Notes under the pieces: model-generated
Database searches by the model: none
Told to the model about the DNA's origin: nothing
Seen by the model: the letters and a program-made list of their open reading frames with translations, nothing else
Translations under genes and position numbers: made by a program
Shown: positions 39,535 through 47,284 of the stretch, one piece after another
How positions within the stretch are numbered: the stretch's first letter is position 1
How the letters are laid out: each line of letters opens with the position of its first letter
Assembly (NCBI RefSeq): GCF_009914755.1
Contig: NC_060925.1
Origin: the human T2T-CHM13v2.0 reference genome, Homo sapiens
DNA length: 64,000 nt
Strand: one strand, 5' to 3'

Positions 39535-42500
39535 AGGGGCGGTTCCAAGTTGGCCAAATAGGAACAGCTCCAGTCTACAGCTCCCAGCATGAGTGATGCA
39601 GAAGACAGGTGATTTCTGCATTTCCAACTGAGGTACTGGGTTTATCTCACTGGGGCTTGTCAGACAGTGGGTGCAGCACAGTGGGTGCAGAGCAGTGGGT
39701 GCAGCCCAGCAAACGTGAGCCAAAGCAGGGCGAGGCATCGCCTCACCCGGGAAGCACAAGGGGTCAGGGAATTTCCTTTCCTACCCAAGGGAAGCTGTGA
39801 CAGATGGCACCTGGAAAATCGGGTCACTCCCACCCTAATACTGTGCTTTTCCAATGGTCTTAGCAAACGGCACACCAGGAGATTATATCCCACGCCTGGC
39901 TTGGAGGGTCCCACCCCCACAGAGCCTTGCTAATTACTAGCACAGCAGTCTGAGATCAAACTGCAAGGTGGCAGCGAGGCTGGGGGAGGGGCGCCCACCA
40001 TTGCTTAGGCTTGAGTAGGTAAACAAAGTGACTGGGAAGCTCAAACTGGGTGGAGACCACTGCAGCTCAAGGAGGCCTGCCTGCATCTGTAGACTCCACC
40101 TCTGGGGGCGGGGCATAGCCAAACAGGAGGCAGCAGAAACCTCTGCAGAATTAAATGTCCCTGTTTGAAGAGGAGTAGTGGTTGTTCCAGCATGGAGTTT
40201 GAGATCTGAGAACAGATAGACTGCCTCCTCAAGTGGGTCCCTGACCCATGAGTAGCCTAACTGGGAGGCACCCCCGAGTAGGAGCAGACTGGCACCTCAC
40301 ACAGCTGGGTACCCCTCTGAGACAAAGCTTCCAGAGGAATGATCAGGCAGCAACATTTGCTGTTCAGCAATATTCGCTGTTCTGCAGCCTCTGCTGGTGA
40401 TACCCAGGCAAAGAGGGTCTGGAGTGGACCTCCAGCAAACTCCAACAGACCTGCAGCTGAGGGTCCTGACTGTTAGAAAGAAAACTAACAAACAGAAAGG
40501 ACATCCACACCAAAACCCCATCTATACGTCACCATCATCAAAGACCAAAGGTAGATAAAACCACAGAGATGGGGACAAAACAGAACAGAAAAGCTGAAAA
40601 TTCTAAAAATCAGAGCGCCTCTCCCCCCTCCAAAGGAACACAGCTCCTCGCCAGCAATGGAACAAAGCTGGACGGAGAATGACTTTGACAAGTTGAGAGA
40701 AGAAGGCTTCAGATGATCAAATTTCTCCGAGCTAAAGGAGGAATTTTGAACCCATCGCAAAGAAGCTTAAAAACCTTGAAAAAAGATTAGATGAATGGCA
40801 AACTAGAATAACCAGTGTAGAGAAATCCTTAAATGACCTGATGGAGCTAAAAACCATGGCAAAGAAACTAAGTGACGAATGTGCAAGCTTCAGTAGCTGA
40901 TTCAATCAACTGGAAGAAAGGGGATCAGTGATTGAAGATCAAATGAATGAAATGAAGCAGGAAGAGAAGTTTAGAGAAAAAAGAGTAAAAAGAAATGAAC
41001 AAGGACTCCAAGAAATATGGGACTATGTGAAGAGACCAAATCTATGTCTGACTGGTGTACCTGAAAGTGACGGGGAGAATGGAACCAAGTTGGGAAACAC
41101 TCTGCAGAATATTATCCAGGAGAAATTCCCACACCTAGCAAGGCAGACCAACAATCAAATTCAGGAAATACAGAGAACACCGCAAAGATACTCCTCAAGA
41201 AGAGCAACCCTAAGACACATAATTGTCAGATTCACCAAGGTTGAAATGAAGGAAAAAATGTTAAGGGCAGCAAGACAAAGAAAGGTCAAGTTACCCACAA
41301 AGGGAAGCCCATCAGACTAACAGCGGATCTCTCAGCAGAAACAATACAAGCCAGAAGAGAGTGGGGGCCAATATTCAACATTCTTAAAGAAAGGAATTTT
41401 CAACCCAGAATTTCATATCCAGCCAAACTAAGCTTCATAAGTGAAGGAGAAATAAAATCCTTTACAGACAAGCAAGTGCTGAGAGATTTTGTCAGAACCA
41501 GGCCTGCCCGAAAAGAGCTCCTGAAGGAAGCACTAAACATGGAAAGGAACAACCAGTACCAGACACTGCAAAAACATGCCAAATTGTAAAGACCATCGAT
41601 GCTAGGAAGAAATCACATCAACTAATGAGCAAAATAACCAGCTAACATCATAGTGACAGGATCAAATCCACACATAACAATATTAACCTTAAATGTAAAT
41701 GGGCTAAATGCTCCAATTAAAAGACACAGACTGGCAAATTGGATAAAGAGTCAAGACCCATCAGTGTGCTGTATTCAGGAGACCCATCTCACATGCAGAG
41801 ACACACATAGGTTCAAAATAAAGGGATGGAGGAAGATCTACCAAGCAAATGAAAACAAAAAAAGGCAGGGGTTGCAATCCTAGTCTCTGATACAACAGAC
41901 TTTAAACCGACAAAGATCAAAAGAGACAAAGAAGGCCATTGCATAATGGTAAAGGGATCAATTCAACAAGAAGAGCTAACTATCTTAAATATATATGCAC
42001 CCAATACAGGACCACCCAGATTCATAAAGCAAGTCCTTAGAGACCTACAAAGAGACTTAGACTCCCAAACAATAATAATGGGAGACTTTAACACCCCACT
42101 GTCAACATTAGACAGGTCAACAAGACAGAAAGTTGACAAGGATATCCACGAATTGAAATCAGCTCTGCACCAAGAAGACCCAATAGACATCTACAGAACT
42201 CTCCACCCCAAATCAACAGAATGCACATTCTTCTCAGCACCACACCACACTTATTCCAAAATTGACCACGTAGTTGGAAGTAAAGCACTCCTCAGCAAAT
42301 GTAAAAGAACAGAAATTATAACAGTCTCTCAGACCACAGTGCAATCAAATTAGAACTCAGGATTAAGAAACTCACTCAAAACAGCTCAACTACATGTAAA
42401 CTGAACAACCTGCTCCTGAATGACTACTGGGTACATAACAAAATGAAGGCAGAAATAAAGATGTTCTTTGAAACCAATGAGAACAAAGACACAACATACC

Positions 42501-43982
42501 AGAATCTCTGGGACACATTCAAAGCAGTGTGTAGAGGGAAATTTATAGCACTAAATGCTCACAAGAGAAAGCAGGAAAGATCTAAAATTGACACCCTAAC
42601 ATCACAATTAAAAGAACTAGAGAAGCAAGAGCAAACACATTCAAAAGCTAGCAGAAGGCAAGAAATAACTAAGATCAGAGCAGCATTGAAGGAGATAGAG
42701 ACACAACACCCTTCAAAAAAATCAATGAATCTAGGAGCTGGTTTTTTGAAAAGATCAACAAAATTGACAGACCACTAGCAAGACTAATAAAGAAGAAAAG
42801 AGAGAAGAATCAAATAGACACAATAAAAAATGATAAAGGGGACATCACCACCAATCCCACAGAAATACAAACTACCTTCAGAGAATACTATAAAATACCT
42901 AAATACTAGACACCTCTACGCAAATAAACTAGAAAATCTAGAAGAAATGGATAAATTCCTGGACACATACACCCTCCAAAGACTAAACCAGGAAGAAGTT
43001 GAATCCCTGAATGGACCTATAACAGGCTCTGAAATTGAGGCAATAATCAATAGCCTACCAACCAAAAAAAGCCCAGCACCAGATGGATTCACAGCTGAAT
43101 TCTACCAGAGGTACAAGGATGAGCTGGTACCATTCCTTCTAAAACTATTCCAGTCAATAGAAAAAGAGGGAATCCTCCCTAACTCACTTTATGAGGCCAG
43201 CATCATCCTGATACCAAAGCTTGGCAGAGACACAACAAAAAAAGAGAATTTTAGACCAATATCCCTGATGAACATCGATGCAGAAATCCTCAGTAAATTA
43301 CTGGCAAACCGAATCCAGCAGCATATCAAAGAGCTTATCCACCATGATCAAGTGGGCTTCACCCCTGGGATGCAAGGCTGGTTCAACATACACAAATCAA
43401 TAAACATATTCCAGCATATAAACAGAACCAAAGGCAAAAACCACATGATTATCTCAATAGATGCAGAAAAGGCCTTTGACAAAATTCAATAGCCCTTCAT
43501 GCTAAAAACTCTCAATAAATTAGGTATTGATGGAATGTATCTCAAAATAATAATAGCTATTTATGACAAACCCACAGTCAATATCATACTGAATGGGCAA
43601 AAACTGGAAGCATTTCCTTTGAAAAGTGGCACAAGACAGGGATGCCCTCTCTCACCACTCCTATTCAACGTAGTGTTGGAAGTCCTGGCTTGGGCAATAA
43701 GGCAGGACAAATAAATAAAAGGAATTTTATTTATTTGGAATATTTATTAGGAAAAGAGGAAGTCAAATTGTCCCTCTTTGCCGATGACATGATTGTATAT
43801 TTAGAAAACCCCATCATCTCAGCCCAAAATCTACTTAGGCTGATAAGCAAATTCAGCAAAGTCTCAGGACACAATATCAATGTACAAAAATCACAAGCAT
43901 TCTTATACACCAATAACAGACAATCAGAGAGCCAAATCATGAGTGAACTCCCATTCACAATTGCTTCAAAGAGAATAAAATA
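39535..43982 (+). mobile_element. L1PA5/6-like element, segment A: complete 5'UTR, disrupted ORF1 (40569-41589), ORF2 from 41653 through most of RT
   Basis: 5' end GGGGCGGTTCCAAGTTGGCC. ORF1p and ORF2p peptides in the ORF track ([27 protein letters not shown]). Stops and frameshifts present; ORF2 start is GTG. Confidence 0.95.
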
Positions 43983-43992
43983 AAGTACTTTA

Positions 43993-45638: not shown

Positions 45639-45852
45639 CTAAAATCTATACCTTGCAGGAATAAAGGTTACCTTGCAGATTCTCAAAGATGTATAATCAG
45701 GCAAATGATGCATTCAATTGTAAGTTTTAGTGTTCCCTTTATTTTGAGTGTTTTTATTCACATAAGTTGCAACTTTATTGCTCAGGGAAATAGTCGCTGA
45801 ATTAAAATCAATGAAAAATTCGAAAGACTATTTCTTTTTTTGAGTCTTGGCT
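45635..45852 (+). repeat. ~215-bp direct repeat, copy 1 (copy 2 at 47063-47277)
   Basis: By eye, about 13 substitutions and one 3-bp indel between the copies. Confidence 0.95.
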
Positions 45853-47062
45853 GAAACTAGATCCCTTCCTTACACCTTATAAAAAAATTAATTCAAGATG
45901 GATTAAAGACTTACATGTTAGACCTAAAACCATAAAAACCCTAGAAGAAAACCTAGGCAATACCATTCAGGACATAGGCATGGGCAAGGACTTCATGTCT
46001 AAAACACTAAAAGCAATGGCAACAAAAGCCAAAATTGACAAATGGGATCTAATTAAACTAAAGAGCTTCTGCACAGCAAAAGAAACCACCATCAGAGTGA
46101 ACAGGCAACCTACAGAATGGGAGAAAATTTTTGCAATCTACTCATCTGACAAAGGGCTAATATCCAGAATCTACAAAGAACTCAAACAAATTTACAAGAG
46201 AAAATCAAACAACCCCATCAAAAAGTTGGCGAAGGATATGAACAGAAACTTCTCAAAAGAAGACATTTATGCAGCCAACAGGCACATGAAAAAATGCTCA
46301 TCATCACTGGCCATCAGAGAAGTGCAAATCAAAACCACAATGAGATACGATCTCACACCAGTTAGGATGGTGATCATTAAAAAGGCAGGAAACAACAGGT
46401 GCTGGAGAGGGTGTGGAGAAATAGGAACACTCTTACACTGTTGGTGGGACTGTAAACTAGTTCAACCATTGTGGAAGACATTGTGATTCCTCAAGGATCT
46501 AGAACTAGAAATACCATTTTACCCAGCCATCCCATTACTGGGTATATACCCAAAGGATTATAAATCATGCTGCTATAAGGACACATGCACATGTATGTTT
46601 ATTGCAGCACTATTCACAATAGCAAAGACTTGGAACCAACCCAAATGTCCATCAGTGATAGAGTGGATTAAGAAAATGTGGCACATATACCCCATGGAAT
46701 ACTATGCAGCCATAAAAAAGGATGAGTTAGTGTCCTTTGTAGGACATGGATGAAGCTGGAAACCATCATTCTCAGGAAACTATCGCAAGGACAGAAAACC
46801 AAACACTGCATGTTCTCACTCATAGGTGGGAATTGAACAATGAGAACACTTGGACACAGGAAGGGGAACATCACACACCGGGGCCTGTCGTGGGGTGGAG
46901 GGAGTGGGGAGGGATAGCATTAGGAGATATACCCAATGTAAACGACGAGTTAATGGGTGCAGCACACCAACATGGCACATGTGTACATATGTAACAAACC
47001 TGCACGTTGTGTGCACGTGGACCCTAGAACTTAAAGTATAATAATAATAATTTAAAAAAAGA
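45850..47062 (+). mobile_element. L1 segment E: ORF2 C-terminus, 3'UTR and A tail (L1PA5/6-like)
   Basis: ORF 45980..46486 includes [19 protein letters not shown]1PA 3'UTR ends CTTAAAGTATAATAAT. Confidence 0.95.
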
Positions 47063-47284
47063 AAAGCTAAGATCTATATCTTGCAGGAATAAAGGTTACC
47101 TTGCAGATTCCCAAAGACCTATAATCAGGCAAATGACACATTCAATTGTAAGTTTTAGTGTTCCCTTTATTTTGAGTGTTTTTATTCAAATAAGTTGCAA
47201 CTTTATTGTTCAGAGAAGTCACTGAATTAAAATCAATGAAAAATTCGAAAGACTGTTTCTCTTTTTGAGTCTTGGCTCTCCTTT

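What the first reader, a model, noticed from the sequence alone, without database searches (positions are those of the whole stretch)
39535..47277. Five-part L1 mosaic (A+ / B- / C+ spliced / flank copy / E+) with microhomology junctions and no ordinary TSD
Seen order: 5'UTR-ORF2 (39535-43982,+), inverted RT (43993-45024,-), spliced ORF1 piece (45022-45638,+), copy of the 3' flank (45635-45852), 3' end (45850-47062,+), flank (47063-47277). Junction microhomologies are ATT (B/C), AA(AG) (C/flank) and GCT (flank/E). About 220 nt of ORF2 between the end of B and the start of E is missing. I see no short TSD matching the left flank near 39520-39534. Ordinary twin priming gives one inversion without a large duplication, so it cannot explain this. 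Inference: multiple priming or template-switch events, probably with target-site rearrangement, about 20 kb upstream of an immune co-stimulatory gene.
Basis: partly seen in the sequence, partly recalled or inferred. Interest (0 to 1): 0.72.

Follow-up and report, generated by a model that had tools for sequence, protein, structure and literature searches.

The report
Scrambled L1 jump from vanished source
An old human jumping gene (L1) near the immune gene TNFSF4 is stitched together from six pieces, two of them chromosome 12 DNA and one a spliced piece from a different L1; it likely formed in one messy insertion from a parent element that is no longer on chromosome 12.

Summary
The five pieces and their microhomologies are real, but the '3' flank' is not target DNA. 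Window 47057-48097 is a 1.04-kb copy of chr12:62,226,492-62,227,570 (90.7%), ending in AATAAA and an A-tail at 48104: an L1 3' transduction. The chr12 site holds no L1 today; it is an intact TTTTT/AAAAG site. A 181-nt orphan transduction on chr11 ends at the same poly(A) site with its own TSD. So the insertion spans 39535-48104 (8.57 kb), has no TSD, and piece D is a second copy of transduced DNA. Pieces A and B share private variants found nowhere else in the genome. Piece C has the known SpIRE97/976 splice and belongs to another L1 sub-lineage than A. All internal duplicates are about as old as the transduction (about 5% non-CpG). Best reading (0.45): one target-primed event with twin priming, repeated template switching over RNAs of two L1 loci, and end joining. 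Rivals differ in where and in how many steps it was assembled. Every ingredient is known; the combination, fixed in the germline, I did not find described. No function shown.

The parts
39535..43982 (+). Piece A: L1 from its first base through 5'UTR, ORF1 and ORF2 into the RT domain (L1 ~1-4450); both ORFs broken
   Evidence: relatives align from query positions 1-13
43980..43993 (.). A/B junction: 10 nt that fit neither L1 end (43983-43992), inside a perfect 14-bp palindrome; likely snap-back synthesis during end joining
   Evidence: 8 of 64,000 centres in the window have a palindrome this long (about 0.0014 within 5 nt of a given point)
43993..45024 (-). Piece B: inverted RT region (L1 ~4750 back to ~3715); 736 nt overlap A; shares private variants with A
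45022..45638 (+). Piece C: 13 nt of 5'UTR exon spliced (45034/45035) to ORF1, the SpIRE97/976 junction; from another L1 sub-lineage than A
45635..45852 (+). Piece D: second copy of the first ~220 nt of the transduced chr12 DNA
   Evidence: 93.5% to chr12, 92.7% to 47063-47277
45850..47056 (+). Piece E: L1 3' end (ORF2p from about residue 946, 3'UTR, decayed A-rich tail)
   Evidence: (PDB ORF2p residues 947-1156, E 1e-126)
47057..48097 (+). 3' transduction of chr12:62,226,492-62,227,570; holds an LTR-like repeat (about 47285-47620) and AATAAA at 48080-48085
   Evidence: 90.7% over 1084 columns; 48 of 1016 non-CpG differences
48098..48104 (+). Terminal poly(A) remnant (A7), not present on chr12; true 3' end of the insertion
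   Evidence: chr11 orphan ends at the same base

Best explanation
This is an 8.57-kb L1 insertion with a 1.04-kb piece of chromosome 12 DNA at its end, likely built in one target-primed reverse transcription event from RNA of an L1 that likely once sat on chromosome 12 plus a spliced RNA of a second L1. Shown: the pieces, junctions, chr12 origin of the tail, empty chr12 site, chr11 sibling, common origin of A and B, separate origin of C, no TSD. Inferred sequence: (1) a read-through transcript of the chr12 L1 was polyadenylated 1.04 kb downstream; (2) RT primed at the chr1 nick copied the tail and piece E, stalled near L1 4970, jumped by GCT onto the transduced stretch again (D), then by AAAG onto a spliced SpIRE97/976 RNA of another L1 (C); (3) a second priming near L1 4750 made the inverted piece B, joined to C by ATT, as in twin priming; (4) a further cDNA of the same source, L1 4450 to base 1 (A), was joined to B by end joining with snap-back synthesis and to the left flank without a TSD, likely with loss of target DNA; (5) the chr12 L1 allele was likely lost by drift or precisely removed.
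For: Transduction. chr12 site is contiguous with an older chr14 paralogue across the junction and has no related L1 in the 10 kb upstream. chr11 orphan: same poly(A) site, TSD 14 of 15 nt. A and B share 8 non-CpG departures from 10 outgroups in 675 columns, 6 exclusive, against at most 1 in the other 65 pairs; 5 exclusive against 17 outgroups, at most 2 in the other 170 pairs; a two-variant motif occurs genome-wide only in A and B. A and C share 0 of 530; C carries four linked alleles seen in 17, 20 (selected), 18 and 15 of 20 elements picked on one of them, and in 0, 0, 0 and 1 of 10 A-type copies, and A carries none. Clocks agree: A-B 34/675, D-D' 12/207, chr1-chr12 48/1016, A-C 34/529 (pooled duplicates vs transduction Fisher p 0.67). 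B-to-E gap of 220 nt fits twin priming. B sides with A's lineage at 3 of 3 sites, E at 4 of 6 including the cleanest one.
Against: No orthologue could be read, so the order of events is not observed. E sides with C's lineage at 2 of 6 sites and carries a minor allele at 45914 absent from 9 A-type copies, so E is not proven to share a source with A and B. The A/B shared variants (about 1%, four of eight change a residue) are many for a young active source and could instead come from conversion between the inverted arms. One of the eight is an older-lineage allele, and a distant copy (L062) carries four of them, two by selection. D starts within 7 nt of the chr12 nick, which a templated insertion made on chr12 would explain more simply. 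Substitution rates differ between pieces (A 4.3-4.6%, B 2.8-3.1%, C 2.1%, E 2.5%), which weakens the clock test.
Confidence: 0.45

Rival explanations
1. The mosaic was assembled on chr12, where D is a templated copy of target DNA next to the nick, and the whole 8.57-kb unit was later transcribed from A's promoter and retrocopied to chr1 (and truncated to chr11) by L1 proteins in trans.
For: D is 218 nt long and begins 7 nt from the chr12 nick; tumour templated insertions are typically under 250 bp and within 15 bp of the site. The unit starts at L1 base 1 and ends at one poly(A) site. D and D' share one derived base absent from chr12 and chr14.
Against: A clean full-length retrocopy should have a TSD; none. 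The mosaic has no whole ORF2, so two fixed copies would need trans-mobilisation from an allele that was then lost. A 736-bp RNA duplex should show A-to-I editing: editing-type changes are 7 of 34 private non-CpG sites against 5 of 34 of the opposite type (counted).
Confidence: 0.17
2. Two steps on chr1: an ordinary full-length L1 with the chr12 transduction inserted first; a later break near L1 4450-4970 was patched by DNA-templated fold-back (B), a local templated copy (D) and capture of a spliced L1 cDNA (C).
For: A and E are colinear and on one strand; A/B shared variants would be neutral ageing and explain why no other copy has them; palindromic filler fits break repair.
Against: No TSD from the first step. 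The transduction should then be older than the duplicates; it is not (48/1016 vs 46/882; Poisson p 0.002 if the gap were 0.9% per branch, overstated by rate differences).
Confidence: 0.15
3. A was an older resident L1 on chr1. A new chr12-derived cDNA (tail, E, D, C) invaded it, copied B from its DNA, and deleted the rest of the resident L1 with its right TSD.
For: Explains the missing TSD, the neutral-looking A/B variants and equal clocks. A TT/ATAA site lies 15 nt left of A. E has alleles absent from A-type copies.
Against: E's distinct alleles are the older state, not the younger one expected of a later source. The 220-nt near-colinearity of B and E becomes a coincidence. The TT/ATAA motif is common in AT-rich DNA.
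Confidence: 0.13
4. chr12 never held an L1. A non-L1 chr12 transcript was retrocopied to chr1 and chr11, and L1 pieces later inserted at the start of the chr1 copy, D being a long TSD.
For: No L1 at the chr12 site today; D-E-D' has the geometry of a long TSD.
Against: No chr12 upstream sequence left of D or left of A (scores at shuffle level); the L1 tail meets chr12 DNA exactly at an endonuclease motif; ages are equal.
Confidence: 0.06

Closest known systems
L1 partnered and orphan 3' transductions (PMC12350158, passages; PMC4862182, passages)
   Same: L1 3' end, A-rich tail, unique DNA from another locus, new poly(A) signal and tail; an orphan sibling with TSD.
   Different: The source L1 is missing from the donor site; part of the transduced DNA is copied twice and placed inside the L1; no TSD.
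'Twin priming and 3' switching' and templated insertions in tumours (bioRxiv 10.1101/2024.08.27.596794, section 4 read whole)
   Same: A non-inverted, distant L1 piece at the inversion breakpoint (3 cases there among 3,598 truncated solo L1s); a short copy under 250 bp inside the insertion.
   Different: There the switch is on one RNA and somatic. Here the extra piece is spliced and from another L1, a 4.4-kb 5' piece precedes the inversion, and the event is old germline.
Two-RNA chimeric insertions in engineered cells (PMC11702581, section 7) and L1 chimeras in hg38 (PMC13174262, passages)
   Same: One insertion from two transcripts, with microhomology or untemplated bases at the joins; extra cDNAs at the inversion junction.
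   Different: Both partners here are L1 RNAs of near-identical subfamilies, seen only by variant phasing; five internal junctions.
SpIRE97/976 (PMC5860796, passages, section 8 and the 97/976 rows of S1 Table)
   Same: Identical donor and acceptor; such RNA needs ORF1p in trans, which fits a passenger template.
   Different: A 617-nt internal fragment without its own TSD or tail; not among the 11 listed (the one chr1 row is at 157.3 Mb).

Membership tests
L1 3' partnered transduction | L1 3' end and tail followed by DNA that matches another locus | tested here: met
   47057-48097 = chr12, 90.7%
L1 3' partnered transduction | New poly(A) signal and non-templated A-tail at the end | tested here: met
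   AATAAA 48080, A7 48098-48104; chr12 continues differently; chr11 ends at the same base
L1 3' partnered transduction | Source L1 upstream of the donor DNA | tested here: not met
   chr12 site is empty in this genome, with an endonuclease motif at the junction; former presence is inferred
L1 3' partnered transduction | TSD around the whole insertion | tested here: not met
Twin priming | Inverted L1 piece next in coordinates to the non-inverted 3' piece, with a small deletion or duplication | tested here: met
   B ends 220 nt before E starts; long against the 14.5-bp median
Twin priming | Inverted piece joined directly to target DNA, with microhomology and TSD | tested here: not met
   B is joined to piece A through 10 filler bases
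Twin priming and 3' switching | Non-inverted distant L1 piece at the inversion breakpoint | tested here: met
   piece C between B and D/E
Twin priming and 3' switching | All pieces from one L1 RNA | tested here: not met
   C is spliced and of another sub-lineage; flank 7-225 and L1 3715-4450 are copied twice
SpIRE97/976 | 5'UTR donor at +97 joined to the ORF1 acceptor at +976 | tested here: met
   exact GT and AG boundaries seen in piece A; 11 of 11 fetched genome hits show the same splice
SpIRE97/976 | Near full-length element with own TSD and poly(A) | tested here: not met
   internal fragment only
L1PA5/L1PA6 subfamily | Match to the subfamily consensus at diagnostic sites | not testable with these tools
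   No repeat library on hand; the label is recalled from 5'UTR and 3'UTR features, and fits 2-3% non-CpG divergence
Single insertion event | All pieces present together or absent together in primate orthologues | not testable with these tools
   only this genome is held

The most novel reading that the evidence does not exclude
A single germline L1 insertion, fixed in the ape lineage, was written from at least three RNA copies of two different L1 loci, one of them a spliced RNA that cannot jump alone, and it preserves the barcode of an active source element that has since vanished from chromosome 12. Multi-RNA template switching seen so far in tumours and cell lines would then be a normal germline outcome, hidden in old L1s that repeat annotation reads as separate fragments.
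Probability: 0.4. Interest if true: 0.55.

Novelty: new variant of a known kind. Interest (0 to 1): 0.42.

Why it matters
It shows that old, fixed L1s can be dissected like tumour insertions: variant phasing reveals which pieces came from which parent, and transduced DNA points to source elements that no longer exist. It gives a sharp test in primate T2T genomes (chr1, chr11, chr12 sites) of whether multi-RNA template switching happens in the germline. It also shows an L1-L1 chimera that chimera catalogues built on non-L1 partners would miss. For TNFSF4 there is only proximity: 20 kb upstream of the main first exon, and the annotated 3' end of lncRNA LOC100506023 falls inside the transduced DNA.

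Tried and rejected
Assembly artefact: rejected, copies are 7-10% apart. D as a copy of chr1 target flank: rejected. TSD at 47063 or 48105: none above chance. Sizing a target deletion from the old repeat in the left flank: the left flank matches two chr5 copies up to about 39486, the right flank matches neither (scores 34-36, below shuffle maxima), so no size. C/D or D/E as splice junctions: rejected, a GT-AG splice would lack one G at C/D and there is no GT donor at D/E. Sibling L1s sharing the A/B doublet: 2 other hits against 7,282 for the common form; both are far more diverged (82-90%) and carry no chr12 DNA. chr15 SpIRE as C's parent: it shares four alleles, but these proved to be sub-lineage markers, and its 3' part is lost at an Alu. 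The 8 top BLAST neighbours of C gave no fixed diagnostic site against A-type copies. APOBEC or ADAR signature: none. Rfam families in 39000-48600: 0. Earlier findings of this scan could not be consulted.
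Full report
Observation. A overlaps B in inverted sense over 736 nt (91.8%), A overlaps C over 615 nt (90.2%), and D matches 47063-47277 over 218 nt (92.7%). E encodes ORF2p residues 947-1156 of the solved human protein. Against intact copies the joins carry ATT, AAAG and GCT microhomologies, and 220-222 nt of ORF2 are missing between B and E. 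The A/B join is different: ten filler bases inside a perfect 14-bp palindrome, a length reached at 8 of 64,000 centres in the window. Short fold-back insertions of this kind are described at repaired breaks (PMC11724301, abstract only).

The flank is not a flank. Searching the genome with D found, besides itself and its twin, chr12:62,226,498 (93%) and an older chr14 paralogue (79%). The chr12 match covers 47057-48100 at 90.7% and stops there. On chr1 it ends in AATAAA (48080) and seven A's that chr12 lacks; what follows is unique to chr1. This is a 3' transduction. On chr12 the junction is a TTTTT/AAAAG endonuclease motif, the sequence runs on unbroken against the chr14 paralogue, and no related L1 lies in the 10 kb upstream; only an old, opposite-strand L1 lies about 18 kb away. 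chr11:125,853,631-824 holds the last 181 nt of the same stretch, cut at the same base, with an A-tail and a TSD matching at 14 of 15 nt. A read-through transcript from this site was therefore retrotransposed at least twice. That an L1 once stood there is inferred. These searches score only 40 candidates each, so further siblings may exist.

Ends. The insertion runs from 39535 to 48104. No TSD joins these ends: the best score was reached or beaten by 71 of 300 random pairs. In polymorphic germline L1s 69.5% had a detected TSD and 7.4% a target deletion (PMC12016303, passages), so absence is uncommon but not rare. The deletion could not be sized.

Who parented which piece. I fetched ORF1, RT and 3' regions of 10 of the 39 other copies closest to A's 5'UTR (one rearranged copy was trimmed and dropped from then on). 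With CpG sites masked, A and B share 8 departures in 675 columns, 6 exclusive; the other 65 pairs share at most 1. With 17 outgroups, 5 remain exclusive against at most 2 in 170 pairs. A motif holding two of them occurs twice in the genome, in A and in B; a sibling with other changes in the 21 bases would be missed. A and C share none in 530 columns (Fisher p 0.01-0.04). C instead carries four linked alleles of a slightly older sub-lineage, seen in 17, 20, 18 and 15 of 20 elements picked on the second allele (20 of 27 hits fetched) and in 0, 0, 0 and 1 of 10 A-type copies; A has none. C thus comes from another L1. In 7 of 9 such elements that still had RT and 3' regions, B sided with A's lineage at 3 of 3 sites and E at 4 of 6; E is not settled. 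Against this reading: one A/B variant is an older allele, a distant copy carries four of the eight (two by selection), four of eight change a residue, and conversion between the inverted arms could mimic shared descent.

Piece C is spliced. Thirteen bases of 5'UTR join ORF1 exactly at the GT and AG seen unspliced in A. This is the SpIRE97/976 junction; such RNA does not retrotranspose in cis and needs ORF1p in trans (PMC5860796, passages). The locus is not among the 11 listed (S1 Table rows).

Age. Non-CpG distances are A-B 34/675, D-D' 12/207, chr1-chr12 48/1016 and A-C 34/529; they do not differ (p 0.35 and 0.67). About 2.5% per branch matches the outgroup copies (1.3-5.2%). The L1PA5/6 label and an age near 20-27 million years are recalled; one search gives 27 million years for L1PA6. 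Rates vary among pieces (A and D about twice B, C, E and D'), without an APOBEC or ADAR pattern; this is unexplained.

Mechanism. Best reading (0.45): one event on chr1. RT copied the tail and E, jumped back onto the transduced stretch (D), jumped to a spliced RNA of another L1 (C), and met a second, internally primed cDNA (B); a third cDNA (A) was end-joined to B and to the left flank. Rivals: assembly on chr12 and transfer as one transcript (0.17); ordinary insertion then repair of a later break (0.15); invasion of a resident L1 (0.13); no L1 ever on chr12 (0.06). The core facts, transduction from a now empty site and two L1 parents, I put at about 0.9.

Known parallels. [quoted passage not shown] Nine two-RNA insertions were seen in engineered cells (PMC11702581, section 7). 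Non-canonical germline insertions with internal rearrangements are common as a class (PMC12350158, passages). Junction microhomology norms: PMC2912911, passages. Endonuclease-independent insertions: PMC1920257, abstract. I found no description of this locus: searches (listings and abstract starts only), no TNFSF4 in the main text of PMC13174262 or in the SpIRE table. Supplements of genome-wide transduction and chimera catalogues were not seen and may list it.

Verdict. A real, old, probably inert insertion; a new combination of known L1 mechanisms, with an unusually clean record of its parents. Interest 0.42.

Noticed in passing
genome-wide; loci L072-L082: The SpIRE97/976 junction motif (up to 2 mismatches) has 32 hits, 17 clearly spliced and 1 doubtful; 11 of 11 fetched are real spliced L1s. 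Three lie on chr8 and chr9, where the published list of 11 has no row, so that catalogue is incomplete for older subfamilies.
   Followed up: partly
window 47157-47186: The annotated 3' end of lncRNA LOC100506023 (minus strand, 47157) lies inside the transduced chr12 DNA, with AATAAA starting at 47186 and 47171 on that strand: the transduction may supply its poly(A) signal.
   Followed up: partly
L032 (chr11:125,853,631-125,853,824): Orphan 181-nt transduction with A-tail and TSD, inserted in an old L1-like sequence.
   Followed up: yes
L004/L028 (chr14:90,702,391-90,703,590): Old paralogue (73-79%) of the chr12 donor region without the LTR-like insert; origin unknown.
   Followed up: partly
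L083 (chr15:72,953,800-72,957,020): A SpIRE97/976 cut off at about L1 4280 by an Alu, its 3' part missing.
   Followed up: partly
window 43726-43743: A 17-nt insertion private to piece A inside the RT region, AT-rich and partly repeating its neighbours.
   Followed up: no
window 49366-50929: An older L1 fragment (77-88% to the pieces here) with internal deletions, 1.3 kb right of the insertion.
   Followed up: no
window 47593-47619 and 47689-47715; 47622-47686: A 27-nt direct repeat inside the transduced DNA, also on chr12; 47622-47686 also matches, inverted, a spot about 240 nt upstream of the chr12 junction and its chr14 paralogue.
   Followed up: no
window 43247-45024: A 736-bp inverted repeat with a spacer of about 320 bp; a candidate for recurrent inversion or deletion.
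   Followed up: no
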